Virus record (IMG/VR): IMGVR_UViG_2695420595_000014
Location: 1-42,212 of that record
DNA length: 42,212 nucleotides
Source: a virus
Taxonomy: Duplodnaviria; Heunggongvirae; Uroviricota; Caudoviricetes
Direction: 5' to 3' (one strand)
The stretch's first letter is position 1. Each line of letters begins with the position of its first letter. Made by a program: the position numbers and the translations under genes. This document shows positions 5,832 to 41,204 of the stretch, piece by piece. The notes under the pieces are model-generated. The model had not been told where the DNA came from. It saw only the letters and a program-made list of their open reading frames with translations, and did no database searches.

Positions 5832-6125
5832 TCAGTCATTACTGATAGCGCCATAGCGTGAGCGGTAATTACGCAGGCGCGGGTCAATTTCAGGGAAGTG
5901 GGTATATGTGGCTTTGCGGAATGGTCGGATTGATGTCTGGTAAATTCGCTCGCGTTCTTCTTTCTCTGCAAGCCATATACAATGGCGAAATTCCTTTTCC
6001 TCTTTCGTTTCCTGCGGTAGCGACATTATCCGATCGTAGTTTTTTCTGAATTTATCCAGCACCTCCGATACGGAATTGCCGGAACAGCGGCGCGCGTCAT
6101 CCGCACCATACAAAGGCGCTGGCAT
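5832..6125 (-). CDS. Hypothetical protein (97 aa)
   Basis: ORF with GGAGA SD. Confidence 0.5.
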   Translation of the reverse strand: MPAPLYGADDARRCSGNSVSEVLDKFRKNYDRIMSLPQETKEEKEFRHCIWLAEKEERERIYQTSIRPFRKATYTHFPEIDPRLRNYRSRYGAISND

Positions 6126-6141: not shown

Positions 6142-6690
6142 TTATTTAGCTAACTTTTTCCAGATCGCTGAAACGTATTTGGCTTGGTGGATGGCATCAT
6201 CAAGCGCGTTGTGGCGAGTTCCTTTGAATGGCATATCTCGCTTAGGGTCGAATCCTATTACCTTTCCAAGCTCGACGATTGTTCTTACGTCGCGGTCATT
6301 CCACCACTGCCACGGAACTGGCTGCCCTGTCAGCGAATAACTGTTGCGGAGAATAACGCAGTCAAATGATGCTCCATTCCCCCAAACCTGAACGAATTTG
6401 TGGTTAGCGTTCTTTATGATGAATTCAGATAACCATGAAAGAGCCGTTGAAAGCTCTTGAGTGTTGCTGGTTAGCGATTTTCTGGCTTCTTCACTCTGTT
6501 CCATCCACCATAAAATCGTTGAAGCGTCAGGACGCGCCCGATATCGCATTGATGACTCAAGCGAGATATTTACCGAGAACTCTTCTCCTGTTTCTCCGGT
6601 ATTCGGGTCAAAGAATACCGCCCCAATAGAAATAACTGGCGCGTATGGCCCGTTGCCCATTGTTTCAAGGTCAACCATCAAGTGATTCAT
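6142..6690 (-). CDS. DnaQ-like (DEDD) 3'-5' exonuclease (182 aa)
   Basis: N-terminal MVDLETMG (Exo I motif), later HNALDDA motif; AAGGAC SD. Confidence 0.7.
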   Translation of the reverse strand: MNHLMVDLETMGNGPYAPVISIGAVFFDPNTGETGEEFSVNISLESSMRYRARPDASTILWWMEQSEEARKSLTSNTQELSTALSWLSEFIIKNANHKFVQVWGNGASFDCVILRNSYSLTGQPVPWQWWNDRDVRTIVELGKVIGFDPKRDMPFKGTRHNALDDAIHQAKYVSAIWKKLAK

Positions 6691-6698
6691 GTAAGTCC

Positions 6699-7214
6699 TT
6701 AAATTGCGTGAATAGCGTGACGAGGGAAGGGGAGAGTTACTGGTGCAAAGGGGATATCGTCGTCAAAATCCATAGGTGGTTCGCTGTGATTTCCCTGCTG
6801 CTGAGGTTGCTGTCTTTGTTGCTGACCGTTATTTTGCTGAGGTGAAGACTGTTCATTGCCTCCTTGCTTGCCACCAAGCATTTGCATGGTTCCACCAACG
6901 CCCACGATGACTTCGGTAGTGAACCGATCCTGTCCGCTTTGATCCTGCCATTTTCTTGTCCGCAATTTGCCTTCAAGATAAACCTCAGAGCCTTTTCGCA
7001 GATATTCGCTGGCAATTTCTGCCAGTTTCCCGCTCATTACCACACGGTGCCACTCCGTCTGCTCCTTTTGCTCTCCAGTTTGCTTATCACGCCATTGTTC
7101 TGACGTAGCAACTGTAAGGTTTGCAAATGCCGTTCCTGATGGTGAATATCTGATTTCTGGATCATGCCCAAGGCGACCAATAATGATCACCTTATTTACG
7201 CCTCTGCTTGCCAT
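6699..7214 (-). CDS. ssb: Single-stranded DNA-binding protein with 15-aa extension after the DDDIPF tail
   Basis: OB-fold N-terminus ([16 protein letters not shown]...), Gly/Gln-rich linker, acidic tail DFDDDIPF, then [15 protein letters not shown] before the stop. Confidence 0.85.
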
Positions 7215-7922
7215 TTATGCCGCCTGTTTTAGCTCGTTAACTCTGATGTTCATTACCTGAACGCATTTAGCCTGCGCCTCCTCGTTTCCAGCCATTAATT
7301 GCCAGTCATGCTGATAACGCTCGATGAGTTTTTTCTTGTCAGTTTCTGTCGCTGCATAATCGCTGAAGTCTTTCAGGATTTGTTCGCAGTCAACCGATGG
7401 AGATTTCTGGTTGGTATTTTCTGGTGATGGTTTGTTATCTGATGCTGGTATTGCCCATCCCGGCAGCGATGGAGGGAGCCAGTAAAATCCTGTTCCATCC
7501 TTGAGTTTTGCCCTGTGCCACCCCTGCTTTTTATCGAGAGATGTTTGTGCGAAACCTTCCTCAAGGTTATACAGATACCGACCGATTCCCCACTGAACGG
7601 CAGCGCGCTTCATTGCACCGGAACGACCACCTTTGACGGCTTCTACCTGCGTGTTTTCAGCAGCATCCCATTTGGTTACCCATTCGGAATCAATCTTTAT
7701 TGATATGCCGCATTCAACGCCGCCGTTGTTGGGAATATCGCGGTATTCATTGCGCCATCCTGCTTTGCCGCAAACATCGTCCAGGCGTTTCATGATTGCC
7801 CTGTTCGTGACATAAGCCAGCACCATAGCCCACACCTTGCCATCGCGTGTTTTACCGCTTTGCTGTATTCGCCATTCGATATCTTCGTGGCTGAATGGCT
7901 CATCGAATTTATTCAAATCCAT
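7215..7922 (-). CDS. Single-strand annealing recombinase with Erf-like C-terminal domain (235 aa)
   Basis: C-terminus ...YAATETDKKKLIERYQHDWQL...CVQVMNIRVNELKQ matches the P22 Erf C-terminal region from memory; sits beside ssb as in P22-like recombination modules. Confidence 0.55.
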   Translation of the reverse strand: MDLNKFDEPFSHEDIEWRIQQSGKTRDGKVWAMVLAYVTNRAIMKRLDDVCGKAGWRNEYRDIPNNGGVECGISIKIDSEWVTKWDAAENTQVEAVKGGRSGAMKRAAVQWGIGRYLYNLEEGFAQTSLDKKQGWHRAKLKDGTGFYWLPPSLPGWAIPASDNKPSPENTNQKSPSVDCEQILKDFSDYAATETDKKKLIERYQHDWQLMAGNEEAQAKCVQVMNIRVNELKQAA

Positions 7923-8469: not shown

Positions 8470-9114
8470 TTAGTAGGTTATTTTTGTTGCGAATACTTCG
8501 CCTTTTACGATGGCTGTTATGATATTTTTAGCAACATCTTCTGATGCACCAACCTTGATAAGGTCAGCAAGTATTTTGTTATTTACTTCTTTCCGGTGAG
8601 CTTTATCCTTTGCTCTACGCTCTTCTTCGTCCTTGATTCTTTTTTCTTCTGCTATTCTGGCTTGCTCTTTTGCTTCAGCCTCGCGACGGATTCGTTCAGC
8701 CTCCTCCTGTGCTTTTCTGCGTTCTGCTTCAATTGCTGCCTGCTTTTCTCTTTCAGCTCGTTCTGCTGCCTCTTTTGCTTCGCGCTGTGCTCGTTGCTCG
8801 GCTTCAATGCGTTCACGCTCTGCACGTTCCGCTGCGGCCTTAGCTTCTGCTTCTCGCCTTGCTGCTGCTTCAATTTCGGCTTTTGCCTTTGCTTCGGCTT
8901 CTGCTCTGGCTTTCTCTTCAGCTTCTCTTTTTAATCGTTCTTCATGCTCTCGCTTTTCCTGCTCCGCTTTGAGTCTTGCCTCTTCTCTTTGGCGGTCAAA
9001 TTCGCGATCCATCAAAATCGCTATTTCATGGTCAGACTCAATTTGCTTTGCGAGAGCTTCAGCTGCTGCCTTAGCTTCTTCTTCGGCTTTAATCCGCGCC
9101 TGATTCTTCCTCAT
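8470..9114 (-). CDS. Low-complexity E/A/K/R-rich coiled-coil protein with short globular C-terminus (214 aa)
   Basis: About 150 aa of KAEEEAKAAAE/RREAEAK-type repeats; produces spurious ORFs in other frames. Confidence 0.55.
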   Translation of the reverse strand: MRKNQARIKAEEEAKAAAEALAKQIESDHEIAILMDREFDRQREEARLKAEQEKREHEERLKREAEEKARAEAEAKAKAEIEAAARREAEAKAAAERAERERIEAEQRAQREAKEAAERAEREKQAAIEAERRKAQEEAERIRREAEAKEQARIAEEKRIKDEEERRAKDKAHRKEVNNKILADLIKVGASEDVAKNIITAIVKGEVFATKITY

Positions 9115-19855: not shown

Positions 19856-19930
19856 GGGTCAGTCGTATAAAGGTCATTACGGAAGGCTGTTAACCTTCTT
19901 ATCGTGGTTCGAGTCCACGCTGTCCCGCCA
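19856..19930 (+). tRNA. tRNA-like gene, anticodon GUU (Asn) by manual folding, with acceptor and D-stem mismatches
   Basis: 75 nt ending CCA; T-arm cgtgg-ttcgagt-ccacg; 5-bp anticodon stem with loop CUGUUAA; one T-T mismatch in the acceptor stem and one in the D stem. Confidence 0.5.
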
Positions 19931-19935
19931 AATAT

Positions 19936-20011
19936 GCTGGTTTAGCTCCAATGGTAGAGCAGTCGCCTTGTAAGCGAATGGGTAGCGGTTCAAGTCCGTT
20001 AACCAGCACCA
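19936..20011 (+). tRNA. tRNA, anticodon UGU (Thr) by manual folding
   Basis: 76 nt; perfect 7-bp acceptor stem GCTGGTT/AACCAGC, D-arm GCTC/GAGC, anticodon loop CUUGUAA, T-loop TTCAAGT, 3' CCA. Confidence 0.7.
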
Positions 20012-39810: not shown

Positions 39811-40968
39811 TCACTCCACCTTCCCATCAAGCCATTCCGCCCACCACTGCATCATTTCTCTGCGCTTATCTAGATACTGAGCATGGTTGTAAATCCCGCG
39901 CACAGATCCGCCGTTGGCATGTGCAAGTTGCACTTCAATAGCGTCAGCAGGCCATTCGTGCTCGTTCATAATCGTGCTGAATTCATGCCTGAATCCGTGA
40001 CCGCTTTCCAGACCCTCATAGCCGATTTGTTTAATCACAAGTAGCACCGCGTTCTCGCAGATTGGCTTCTTCTTATCGTTGCGTCCGGCAAAAACAAACT
40101 CTGATACTGGTTTGGTGATTGAGCTTAGCGTAGTGAGAAGTTCAACCACCTGGTCTGACATAGGAACCACATGAATTTTGCGTCCCTTCATCACACTGGC
40201 GTCGATAGTGATAATCCTGTTTTCAAAATCGACGTTCTTCCATTGCATGGAACGAAGCTCTTTCGTTCTTAGGGCTGTGTAGCGTAAAACTTTGGTCGCA
40301 ATGAGCGATACGATGCTTCCTGAAAATGTTGCCAGTGCTTTGTTGAATGCCGGGATCTGGTCTGCAGGAAGAAACGGGAAGTTCTTCTTGCGGTATCCTT
40401 TCATGGCGTCTGCAAGGTCAGGTGCCGGGTTATATTTAGCCCTACCAGTGACAATAGCGTAACGGAAAACCTCGCCGCATCTTCTGCGTGCTTTGTTGGC
40501 TCGCTCCATTGCGCCGCGATCTTCAAATCTGCGGATTACTTCCAGCAGTTGCATCGGCTCAATATCCTGAATTTCAAGGCCGCCGATGATAGGTAAAATG
40601 TCGTCATCAAACATTTTTGCAAGTTCAGTTGCATAGCCTACTGACCAGACTTGCTTCTTGTGCTCGTACCATTCCTTGTAAATCGCACTAAAGGAATTGT
40701 TGTTAGACGAAGCCTTTTTCGCTTTTACCGGATCGATGCCAACCGAGATGTCTTTCCTCGCAGTCCATGCTTTATCCCTTGCCTCCTGCAAAGTCATTAG
40801 CGGATATTTTCCTACGGTCAGGATTTTCTCCTTACCGTCAATCTTGTAGCGAAGCTGCCATACCTTTTTCCCTGACACAGGGACATAAAGGTACAGGCCA
40901 TTACCATCGAGTAGGCGGTATGGTTTTTCTTTCGGCTTTGCTGCTTCAATCTGCTTAACGGTGAGCAT
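39811..40968 (-). CDS. intS: Tyrosine integrase, P4-type (about 385 aa)
   Basis: Essentially matches IntS of CPS-53/KplE1 from memory; catalytic-domain R...HxxR...Y; adjacent to argW; start chosen at MLTVKQIEAAKPK. Confidence 0.9.
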   Translation of the reverse strand: MLTVKQIEAAKPKEKPYRLLDGNGLYLYVPVSGKKVWQLRYKIDGKEKILTVGKYPLMTLQEARDKAWTARKDISVGIDPVKAKKASSNNNSFSAIYKEWYEHKKQVWSVGYATELAKMFDDDILPIIGGLEIQDIEPMQLLEVIRRFEDRGAMERANKARRRCGEVFRYAIVTGRAKYNPAPDLADAMKGYRKKNFPFLPADQIPAFNKALATFSGSIVSLIATKVLRYTALRTKELRSMQWKNVDFENRIITIDASVMKGRKIHVVPMSDQVVELLTTLSSITKPVSEFVFAGRNDKKKPICENAVLLVIKQIGYEGLESGHGFRHEFSTIMNEHEWPADAIEVQLAHANGGSVRGIYNHAQYLDKRREMMQWWAEWLDGKVE

Positions 40969-41129
40969 GGGTAAAAATCCGGTGGGTAAAATTATTTTAT
41001 CCACTTTTTACCCGTCATGGAGTGCGGCTGTCAACGATCTGACGCGAACCATTACGAACTGTGAATCTACGGAAGGCTTGATATTCAGGGGATTTTGCGG
41101 ACTGGTACGGATGGGAGCGAACTGATAAA

Positions 41130-41204
41130 TGGTGTCCCCTGCAGGAATCGAACCTGCAATTAGCCCTTAGGAGGGGCTCGTTATATCCATTTAACTAAGA
41201 GGAC
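41130..41204 (-). tRNA. argW: tRNA-Arg (anticodon CCU)
   Basis: Reverse complement reads GTCCTCTTAGTTAAATGGATATAACGAGCCCCTCCTAAGGGCTAATTGCAGGTTCGATTCCTGCAGGGGACACCA; cloverleaf folds with anticodon CCU. Confidence 0.95.

What the first reader, a model, noticed from the sequence alone, without database searches (positions are those of the whole stretch)
6699..6760. Phage SSB carries a 15-residue extension beyond the normally terminal DDDIPF motif
The SSB ORF reads ...[11 protein letters not shown] and then continues [15 protein letters not shown] before the stop. In bacterial and most phage SSBs the acidic tip ending in Pro-Phe is the C-terminus, and its free end is what docks partner proteins. 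A masked tip would be expected to alter or block those interactions. This could be a deliberate change in partner specificity or the result of a lost stop codon.
Basis: partly seen in the sequence, partly recalled or inferred. Interest (0 to 1): 0.45.

Follow-up and report, generated by a model that had tools for sequence, protein, structure and literature searches.

The report
Mobile conserved tail on phage SSB
The 15 extra residues after the DDDIPF tip of this prophage's single-strand DNA-binding protein are real and are one copy of a conserved tail found on hundreds of phage and plasmid SSBs. The same site is where a family of homing-endonuclease genes inserts, and in some phages those genes bring the tail with them.

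Summary
The SSB gene (6699..7214, minus strand, 171 aa) reads ...[11 protein letters not shown], then [15 protein letters not shown], then stop.

It is not a singleton, an error or a private lost stop. The contiguous tip+tail allele is in 306 of 5,426 complete E. coli genomes. Diverged tails of the same 14-15 residue pattern ([AS]P[IV][GT]L.[FY]P[RK]H.I..[ILV]) follow the tip in:
- prophage SSBs of Proteus, Providencia and Vibrio
- IncN and Vibrio conjugative plasmids and phage-plasmids
- a Klebsiella phage primase-helicase

The tail evolves under purifying selection in the SSB frame only (pN/pS 0.34, against about 1.5 in the other frames). AlphaFold2 models it as disordered.

The tip|tail junction is the insertion site of a zinc-ribbon HNH homing-endonuclease family. 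In T1-like, rV5-like and phi92-like phages the tail-coding DNA arrives with that gene, and relatives without it end DDIPF-stop. In Sf6 and Bas106 another member splits tip from tail. The window carries the tail without the endonuclease.

That the tail blocks carboxylate-dependent docking of host partners, or adds a new docking peptide, is inference and was not tested. I found no description of the tail in the searchable literature.

The parts
6699..7214 (-). SSB gene, 171 aa including the 15-residue tail; stop codon TAA at 6699-6701
   Evidence: ORF list and translation; Pfam SSB E 2e-38; TIGR00621 alignment ends at residue 156, phrog_44 aligns to residue 170
6900..7199 (-). OB-fold ssDNA-binding domain (residues 6-105)
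   Evidence: Pfam PF00436 residues 6-105; AlphaFold2 pLDDT above 90 over this stretch
6774..6899 (-). Gln/Gly-rich disordered linker (residues 106-147)
   Evidence: AlphaFold2 pLDDT below 50 from residue 116 onward; sequence composition
6747..6773 (-). Canonical acidic tip MDFDDDIPF (residues 148-156), here internal rather than C-terminal
   Evidence: Translation; identical to the E. coli SSB C-terminus in PDB chains 1eqq/4mz9
6702..6746 (-). 15-codon tail [15 protein letters not shown] (residues 157-171): conserved, mobile tail module
   Evidence: Identical or near-identical in ECP1, mEp235 and IncN plasmids; diverged family; pN/pS 0.34 in this frame against 1.5-1.6 in the others; disordered in AlphaFold2
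6746..6747 (-). F|A junction: the empty insertion site of the Sf6 gp26-type and P0022-type HNH homing-endonuclease genes
   Evidence: DNA alignment of the window with Sf6 and Bas106; 27 endonuclease-bearing alleles all split here; no HNH homologue anywhere in the window
6142..6690 (-). Downstream Rv2179c-like/DnaQ-like 3'-5' exonuclease gene; its likely ribosome-binding site (taAGGA) overlaps the SSB stop codon
   Evidence: Pfam PF16473 E 3e-73; sequence; homology with ECP1 and Sf6 ends exactly at 6699
7215..7922 (-). Upstream Erf-like (Rad52/22 family) annealing-protein gene, abutting the ssb start
   Evidence: Pfam PF04098 E 2e-25; annotated Erf-like in Sf6, ECP1 and mEp235
5832..6125 (-). 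abc2 anti-RecBCD gene, completing an epsilon34-type recombination module (Abc2 - exonuclease - SSB - Erf)
   Evidence: ORF; same protein annotated abc2 in Bas106 and mEp235; module type described in PMC12315714

Best explanation
The 45 nt after the Phe codon encode one allele of a conserved, horizontally mobile C-terminal tail module of SSB genes carried by mobile elements. The pattern is [AS]P[IV][GT]L.[FY]P[RK]H.I..[ILV], nearly always 15 residues, directly after the ..D[IVT]PF tip.

The module is tied to a family of free-standing zinc-ribbon HNH homing-endonuclease genes that target the very end of SSB genes. In one arrangement (ESh4, Mt1B1_P17, EmilHeitz) the cassette replaces the stop codon. 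Its 5' leader, which holds the endonuclease's ribosome-binding site and ATG, is read in the ssb frame as the tail. In the other arrangement (Sf6, Bas106) an endonuclease gene with its own stop-plus-RBS leader has inserted between tip and tail of a tail-bearing allele. This restores a DIPF-stop SSB and leaves the tail on the nuclease's C-terminus. The window holds the endonuclease-free, tail-only allele, which is also the empty site for the Sf6-type insertion.

Shown: recurrence, the insertion junctions, presence/absence polymorphism, and purifying selection on the tail as a peptide in the SSB frame.

Inferred: because the tail is selected as a peptide even where no endonuclease gene is present (prophages, IncN plasmids), it most likely acts on the SSB itself. 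It makes Pro-Phe internal, so it should weaken docking into host pockets that clamp the terminal carboxylate, and it offers a second hydrophobic L-x-[FY]-P peptide that could bind a different partner. The partner is unknown.
For: Recurrence:
- 306 of 5,426 E. coli genomes carry the contiguous tip+tail allele.
- ECP1 and mEp235 SSBs carry the same tail although the mEp235 ssb body is only 45-82% identical.
- IncN SSBs end ..DFEDDIPF|[15 protein letters not shown].
- 430 protein clusters matched the tail query, and the top 120 are all SSBs, from Providencia, Proteus and Vibrio.
- The tail also ends a phage primase-helicase and other tip-bearing proteins.

Selection:
- pS 0.63 and pN 0.21 in the SSB frame, against ratios of 1.5-1.6 in the other two frames.
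- Leu5 is invariant across 5 different codons.
- A set with no pattern constraint gives 0.46 against 1.3.

Endonuclease link:
- Sf6 and Bas106 carry ssb-stop, the HNH gene, then the tail, and 27 such alleles were found.
- HNH homologues elsewhere lack the tail.
- ESh4 against pSf-1, Mt1B1_P17 against EF1-1 and phAPEC8, and EmilHeitz against AlexBoehm: the endonuclease-free relative ends DDIPF-stop, and the endonuclease-bearing one gains tail plus nuclease.
- The ESh4 nuclease is homologous to gp26 (E 1e-21).

Other:
- The tail is disordered in AlphaFold2.
- RecO Arg132 anchors the SSB carboxyl end (PMC3152348).
Against: - No binding or genetic data exist for any tailed SSB. Lambdoid SSB-1 proteins are stated to be unstudied experimentally (PMC12315714).
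- Sf6-type phages do well with the tail removed from SSB, so the tail is dispensable.
- Within the Morganellaceae group the tail DNA is nearly invariant while tips and linkers vary. That also fits frequent recombination or homing rather than long-term peptide selection.
- In L010 an endonuclease reads homologous tail DNA in another frame.
- Purifying selection is moderate, and synonymous sites are near saturation.
- It is not resolved whether the window's tail descends from a lost endonuclease cassette or predates it.
Confidence: 0.6

Rival explanations
1. Neutral homing scar. The tail is only leftover 5' leader of a homing-endonuclease cassette, or flanking DNA co-converted with it. It has no role for the SSB. 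It looks conserved because it is repeatedly re-seeded by homing and recombination, and because it destroys the F|stop target and so protects against re-invasion.
For: The tail appears only together with the endonuclease gene in three virulent phage families. Tail DNA is nearly invariant among Morganellaceae prophages with very different tips. The tail sits at a mosaic joint followed by 39 different gene families. Sf6-type phages lack it on SSB.
Against: Substitutions are third-position biased in the SSB frame only. Length stays at 14-15 codons and no frameshifted or prematurely stopped versions were seen among SSB-attached tails. The tail persists on IncN plasmids and in hundreds of prophages with no endonuclease nearby. 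A scar would not need a conserved peptide to block a DNA target.
Confidence: 0.2
2. Pro-peptide or degron. The tail is removed by a protease to unmask the Phe carboxylate, or its hydrophobic C-terminus targets the SSB for rapid turnover, so that activity is timed.
For: The tip is kept perfectly canonical in front of the tail. The tail has a fixed length and a hydrophobic last residue. ClpX is known, from my own knowledge, to read C-terminal tags ending ..AI, as in MuA.
Against: No protease is consistently linked. No cleavage motif was recognised. The same tail sits on a primase-helicase. Nothing here tests protein processing.
Confidence: 0.07
3. DNA- or RNA-level element. The 45 nt are conserved as a recombination 'boundary sequence', a translation-initiation region for the next gene, or an RNA structure, and the peptide is incidental.
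For: Homology with ECP1 and Sf6 stops exactly at the stop codon, and different genes follow. The SSB stop codon overlaps the next gene's ribosome-binding site. In the endonuclease-bearing phages the tail contains the nuclease's SD and ATG.
Against: No stable RNA fold (z = +0.85) and no Rfam match. The window's allele has lost the internal ATG and GGA yet keeps the peptide pattern. Synonymous variation with amino-acid conservation argues against a nucleotide-level constraint.
Confidence: 0.05
4. Accidental lost stop codon or sequencing error, private to this genome.
For: None beyond the fact that canonical SSBs end at Phe.
Against: Identical junction DNA in independent complete genomes, isolated phages and plasmids.
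Confidence: 0.01

Closest known systems
Bacterial-type SSB with the C-terminal acidic tip (E. coli SSB, ...[13 protein letters not shown])
   Same: OB-fold domain, disordered Gln/Gly-rich linker and an identical MDFDDDIPF tip.
   Different: The tip is not terminal. Fifteen conserved residues follow, so the Phe alpha-carboxylate that partners such as RecO clamp (PMC3152348) does not exist. No PDB chain contains such a tail.
Free-standing HNH homing-endonuclease genes of phages (for example the T4 mob/seg genes and I-HmuI-like enzymes; from my own knowledge)
   Same: Sporadic presence or absence among near-identical genomes, insertion next to a highly conserved coding sequence, and a modular zinc-ribbon plus nuclease architecture.
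   Different: Here the cassette replaces the target gene's stop codon and recodes the target protein's C-terminus with a conserved peptide. A second lineage inserts between tip and tail and inherits the tail itself. Cleavage activity and target were not tested.
Phage HK620 SSB (tail NDYPPF), which recruits its cognate annealase Sak4
   Same: An SSB in a lambdoid recombination module whose C-terminal residues mediate partner recruitment (PMC5928155).
   Different: A different SSB family. Its aromatic tip is terminal, whereas here a canonical tip is followed by an extra motif, and the tailed SSBs sit next to Erf, ERF, RecT/YqaJ, DUF3799 or no annealase at all.
T7 gp2.5 and gp4 acidic C-terminal tails ending in Phe (from my own knowledge)
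   Same: The same tail type is shared by an SSB and a primase-helicase. This parallels the Klebsiella phage primase-helicase ending PDDDTPF|APIGLQYAKHAIYVI.
   Different: The T7 tails end at the aromatic residue. No extra motif is known there.
Lambdoid 'boundary sequences' at module joints (annotated bsq3 in Sf6)
   Same: A short conserved stretch at a point where flanking modules are shuffled.
   Different: The tail is translated and shows codon-level purifying selection. Boundary sequences are proposed to act as DNA.

Membership tests
Bacterial-type SSB (PF00436 / TIGR00621) | N-terminal OB-fold ssDNA-binding domain | tested here: met
   Pfam E 2e-38, residues 6-105; TIGR00621 185 bits against a cutoff of 54; AlphaFold2 OB fold with pLDDT above 90
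Bacterial-type SSB (PF00436 / TIGR00621) | Disordered linker followed by an acidic D-D-D-I-P-F motif | tested here: met
   Sequence ...[12 protein letters not shown] at residues 145-156; linker pLDDT below 50
Bacterial-type SSB (PF00436 / TIGR00621) | The Pro-Phe tip is the extreme C-terminus, with a free carboxylate | tested here: not met
   Fifteen further codons precede the stop; the TIGR00621 alignment stops at residue 156 of 171
Bacterial-type SSB (PF00436 / TIGR00621) | Binds ssDNA as a tetramer and recruits partner proteins through the tip | not testable with these tools
   Needs biochemistry
Tailed SSB module of mobile elements (defined here) | A 14-15 residue tail matching [AS]P[IV][GT]L.[FY]P[RK]H.I..[ILV] directly after ..[IVT]PF, then stop | tested here: met
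   [15 protein letters not shown] fits every position
Tailed SSB module of mobile elements (defined here) | Carried by a phage, prophage or plasmid rather than being the host's primary ssb | tested here: met
   The window is a P22-like prophage between cscB and tRNA-Arg. Other carriers are prophages, IncN plasmids and phage-plasmids. Absence from primary chromosomal ssb genes was not systematically tested.
Tailed SSB module of mobile elements (defined here) | An adjacent zinc-ribbon HNH homing-endonuclease gene | tested here: not met
   tblastn of four family members against the window finds only the 14-residue tail. The window is the endonuclease-free allele.
Free-standing HNH homing-endonuclease gene (applies to Sf6 gp26 / ESh4-type neighbours, not to the window) | Presence/absence polymorphism among otherwise near-identical genomes, with precise junctions | tested here: met
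   Window/ECP1 against Sf6/Bas106; ESh4 against pSf-1; Mt1B1_P17 against EF1-1 and phAPEC8; EmilHeitz against AlexBoehm
Free-standing HNH homing-endonuclease gene (applies to Sf6 gp26 / ESh4-type neighbours, not to the window) | The nuclease cleaves the endonuclease-free allele and is copied in by repair | not testable with these tools
   Needs cleavage and co-infection assays
Accidental read-through (lost stop) | Singleton or clonal; no constraint on the added codons | tested here: not met
   Widespread; pN/pS 0.34-0.46 in frame against more than 1.2 out of frame

The most novel reading that the evidence does not exclude
The tail is an active device of a selfish element. A homing-endonuclease cassette rewrites the C-terminus of a core replication/recombination protein with a conserved peptide. 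That peptide either reprogrammes SSB partner choice in favour of break repair and homing, or tethers or neutralises the nuclease. Tail-only alleles, like the one in this window, would then persist because they give protection at the target-site or protein level against such nucleases.
Probability: 0.2. Interest if true: 0.85.

Novelty: new variant of a known kind. Interest (0 to 1): 0.6.

Why it matters
The free Pro-Phe carboxylate of SSB is treated as the universal docking point for more than a dozen genome-maintenance proteins. A large, conserved class of phage and plasmid SSBs, and at least one phage primase-helicase, buries that tip under a second motif. This suggests either an unrecognised interaction mode or a way for mobile elements to keep their SSB off the host interactome.

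It also exposes a homing-endonuclease family specialised on the 3' end of SSB genes that changes the target protein's sequence when it inserts. That gives a tractable system (ESh4/pSf-1, EmilHeitz/AlexBoehm, Sf6/ECP1) for studying how selfish genes remodel host proteins.

In practice, annotation pipelines call all these proteins plain 'ssb', and recombineering work that pairs phage annealases with SSBs should take the tail into account.

Tried and rejected
- **Tail as the native C-terminus of the Sf6 gp26 nuclease, fused to ssb by deletion.** Rejected. Homologues in other contexts end near KPIYP with unrelated short tails. A 47%-identical second lineage at the same site shares the tail. L010 reads the homologous DNA in another frame.
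- **Cis-docking of the tail on the OB fold.** AlphaFold2 with a 92-sequence alignment leaves residues 116-171 below pLDDT 50, so there is no support.
- **RNA structure or known RNA family.** z = +0.85 and no Rfam hit.
- **Tail specific to one annealase family.** Rejected. Neighbours include Erf/Rad52-like, ERF, RecT+YqaJ, DUF3799, RdgC-like or none.
- **Whole-library representative search with the 30-residue C-terminus.** It returned only 11 fragment hits, because clusters at 50% identity hide the tail. Uninformative.
I used a concatenated-tail query instead. Its E-values are weak (about 0.03-1) because the matches are only about 20 residues, so I relied on the 86-100% identities and the regex tabulation.
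- **Literature searches** for the tail strings, for DDDIPF with phage/prophage/extension, for plasmid SSB, and for homing endonuclease with ssb found no description. Casjens et al. 2004 on Sf6 is not in the library; the Sf6 GenBank note only remarks that gp26 shares 14 residues with an 'E. coli SSB'.
- **Motif matching from memory** to beta-clamp-binding, ClpX or PDZ motifs gave nothing convincing, and I make no claim from it.

Full report
**1. The observation**

The minus-strand ORF 6699..7214 encodes a 171-residue protein. It has an SSB OB-fold domain at residues 6-105 (Pfam PF00436, E 2e-38) and a Gln/Gly-rich linker. The canonical tip MDFDDDIPF occupies residues 148-156 (nt 6747-6773). Then come 15 more residues, [15 protein letters not shown] (6702-6746), before TAA (6699-6701). 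TIGR00621 aligns only to residue 156.

The gene lies in a recombination module: abc2 (5832-6125), a DnaQ-like exonuclease (6142-6690), ssb, and an Erf-like annealase (7215-7922). The module belongs to a P22-like prophage lying between cscB and tRNA-Arg(CCT).

**2. Not a singleton or an error**

- Phage ECP1 has the same 171-residue SSB.
- mEp235 has a 168-residue SSB whose body is only 45-82% identical at DNA level but whose tail is identical.
- The 110-nt junction is contiguous in 306 of 5,426 complete E. coli genomes, always annotated simply 'ssb'. It is 100% identical in CP026085.
- A scan of viral contigs for the tail DNA gave 100 SSB-attached tails out of 127 hits.

**3. A family of tails**

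I scanned viral contigs for the codons of PM[DN]FDD[DE]IPF without constraining what follows. Two outcomes appeared: a stop (about 70 loci), or a 14-15 residue continuation. Nearly all continuations share one pattern. Examples:
- [15 protein letters not shown]
- [15 protein letters not shown]
- APIGLMYPRHLINVI
- APIGLPYPRHAIYVI
- APIGLQYPNLLLCI
- SPIGLQYPKHTINSI
- APIGLQFPALVHCMG
- AHPFLQYPELIHAI

The top 120 are all PF00436 SSBs of Providencia, Proteus, Moellerella and Vibrio. They end APIGLPYPRHAIYVI behind varied tips such as PMDFSDDIPF, DGEWIDDIPF and PQDWDDDIPF.

tblastn with a 20-residue tip+tail query found 98 plasmid records, 68 of them conjugative, and 236 phage records.
- IncN plasmids end ..MPDFEDDIPF|[15 protein letters not shown].
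- Phage-plasmids and a Vibrio plasmid (ssb between traD and traI) carry it too.
- A Klebsiella virulent-phage primase-helicase ends PDDDTPF|APIGLQYAKHAIYVI.

The prophage carriers sit beside Erf, ERF, RecT/YqaJ, DUF3799 or RdgC-like genes. Thirty-nine different gene families follow the tail.

**4. Selection**

Among 52 distinct 15-codon tail alleles, pS is 0.63 and pN is 0.21 in the SSB frame (ratio 0.34; about 0.18 after Jukes-Cantor correction). The ratios are 1.54 and 1.60 in the other two frames.
- Leu5 is invariant across five codons.
- Pro2, Pro8 and Ile12 are nearly invariant across four or five codons.
- A set with no constraint on tail sequence, including four unrelated tails as noise, still gives 0.46 against about 1.3. 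Codons 9-15 alone give 0.52.

The tail is therefore constrained as a peptide in the SSB frame. AlphaFold2 with 92 tailed SSBs models the OB fold confidently and leaves residues 116-171 disordered. The RNA has no unusual fold (z = +0.85) and there is no Rfam match. No PDB chain contains the tail.

One caveat applies. Within the Morganellaceae group the tail DNA is far more uniform than the adjoining tip and linker. Recombination or homing therefore also contributes to its uniformity.

**5. Link to homing endonucleases, Sf6 type**

In Sf6 and Bas106 the SSB ends ...PPMNFDDSDIPF-TAG. Nine nucleotides later a 159-residue zinc-ribbon HNH nuclease gene (gp26) begins. Its last 14 residues are [14 protein letters not shown], encoded by the same DNA as the window's tail, followed by the same downstream genes.
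- A second lineage (P0022, 47% identical) sits at the same place with the same tail, behind SSBs ending MNFDDEIPF-TAA.
- All 27 such alleles sampled are split exactly at F|A.
- Homologues of the nuclease elsewhere end near KPIYP without the tail, so the tail belongs to the site and not to the nuclease.
- Decay products exist: in-frame SSB-HNH and HNH-exonuclease fusions.
- The window contains no HNH homologue. It is the empty site.

**6. Link to homing endonucleases, leader type**

| Phage family | With endonuclease gene | Without it (close relative) |
|---|---|---|
| T1-like | ESh4: ..DDDIPF\|ASVGLQYGKHRIYAL | pSf-1 (97% identical): ..DDDIPF-TGA plus terminator |
| phi92-like | Mt1B1_P17: ..DDDIPF\|APIGLQYGRNFLHCF | EF1-1, phAPEC8: ..DDDIPF-stop |
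| rV5-like | EmilHeitz: ..FCDDIPF\|APVGLQYGKSRIHAL | AlexBoehm: ..FCDDIPF-TAA |

In each case the next gene is a nuclease of the same family. The ESh4 nuclease matches gp26 at E 1e-21. The EmilHeitz nuclease shares only the N-terminal 44-residue zinc ribbon. The ATG of each nuclease gene lies inside the tail (caaTATGg, the Q-Y-G codons), preceded by AGGA (the V-G codons). The inserted block begins immediately after the Phe codon and comprises the tail leader plus the nuclease.

So in three unrelated virulent phage families the tail arrived with the endonuclease gene, by replacing the stop codon. Only about 3 of 121 T1-like relatives and 6 of 72 phi92-like relatives carry the insert, against 52 of 116 rV5-like relatives. 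This is the sporadic distribution typical of homing genes.

**7. Synthesis**

The window's tail is homologous to these leaders (shared GCNCCNGTA...ATYCACGCA..TAA). It has lost the internal ATG and GGA and is followed directly by the next gene's ribosome-binding site.

Two origins remain open: it descends from a cassette that later lost its nuclease, or tailed SSBs came first and the nuclease evolved beside them and now co-converts the tail into new hosts.

Either way, the tail is kept as a peptide where no nuclease gene is present. I therefore favour a function on the SSB. The Phe carboxylate that partner pockets clamp is abolished (RecO Arg132, PMC3152348; the same is reported for ExoI, RecQ, chi and PriA, from my own knowledge). 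A second hydrophobic L-x-[FY]-P element and a hydrophobic new C-terminus are added. This predicts weaker recruitment of the host SSB interactome, recruitment of a different partner, or both. That step is inference. Lambdoid SSB-1 proteins have not been studied experimentally (PMC12315714). Phage SSB tails are known to recruit cognate annealases (HK620, PMC5928155).

**8. Rivals**

| Rival | Confidence | Main point |
|---|---|---|
| Neutral homing scar | 0.2 | Fits the co-arrival and the DNA uniformity, but not the frame-specific constraint or the persistence on IncN plasmids |
| Pro-peptide or degron | 0.07 | Untested |
| DNA/RNA-level joint element | 0.05 | Disfavoured by synonymous variation and the lack of structure |
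| Private lost stop or error | 0.01 | Refuted by recurrence |

**9. Novelty**

The protein is an SSB in fold and tip but fails the 'tip is terminal' criterion. I found no paper that mentions the tail strings or describes an SSB-end-specific homing endonuclease. The library lacks many subscription papers, so prior notice cannot be excluded.

I rate it a new variant of a known kind, with interest 0.6. It is surprising for SSB biology and gives several natural paired phages, with and without the endonuclease, for experiments. Its molecular effect is still unknown.

Noticed in passing
P0011, P0014, P0024, P0053; related to window 6142-7214: In-frame deletion fusions between SSB and the gp26-type HNH nuclease, and between the nuclease and the downstream exonuclease. 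For example, SSB residues 1-114 are joined at a shared IVG to the nuclease. They look like decaying homing-endonuclease alleles and are annotated as 'SSB' or '3'-5' exonuclease'.
   Followed up: partly
L006 2060-2527: A second, unrelated HNH_3-type endonuclease gene sits between erf and ssb in one E. coli prophage. Salmonella phage 103203_sal5 (L004 2226-2618) has another HNH gene about 170 nt after a canonical ssb. The ssb neighbourhood is a hot spot for several nuclease families.
   Followed up: no
L236 2622-3029 (Mt1B1_P17) and L236 2516-2563: The annotated start of the endonuclease (MADGH...) appears truncated. The ORF continues upstream, through the zinc-ribbon CxxCG, to an ATG inside the SSB tail, as in ESh4 and EmilHeitz.
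   Followed up: partly
L138 (NZ_CP026085.1 'DH5alpha'), matches window 6691-6800 at 100%: An assembly labelled E. coli DH5alpha carries this P22-like prophage next to csc sucrose genes, which K-12 strains lack as far as I know. The label or the strain history looks odd. It may be the source of the window or a close relative of it.
   Followed up: no
window 19856-20011 and 41130-41204: The prophage carries tRNA-Asn(GTT) and tRNA-Thr(TGT) genes in its late region. tRNA-Arg(CCT) lies next to the integrase gene (39811-41004) and is probably the attachment site.
   Followed up: no
window 8470-9114 (minus strand): A 214-residue protein made almost entirely of E/A/K/R repeats (TolA-like low complexity) in the early-left operon. 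Function unknown.
   Followed up: no
INPHARED records MG0656xx 'Campylobacter phage': About 9-19 records per search, labelled Campylobacter jejuni phages, match E. coli T1-like, rV5-like and phi92-like phages at about 92-97% identity. Host labels are probably wrong or the preparations mixed.
   Followed up: no
L231 2569-3354 and L233 3593-4381 (IncN plasmids): A SprT-family zinc metalloprotease gene lies convergent and immediately next to the tailed ssb in the IncN leading region. Whether it is relevant to the tail (processing?) is unknown.
   Followed up: no
L137: One tail-DNA match lies on a 3.9-kb contig of a MAG labelled Actinomycetes. This is most likely an enterobacterial phage contaminant in the bin.
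   Followed up: no
L187 and L192: Two tip-bearing proteins carry 14-15 residue tails that do not fit the pattern (MDTYHRQSKLGHCV on a non-SSB protein, and RDTFARGARTAYACS). They may be independent read-throughs or a different tail family.
   Followed up: no
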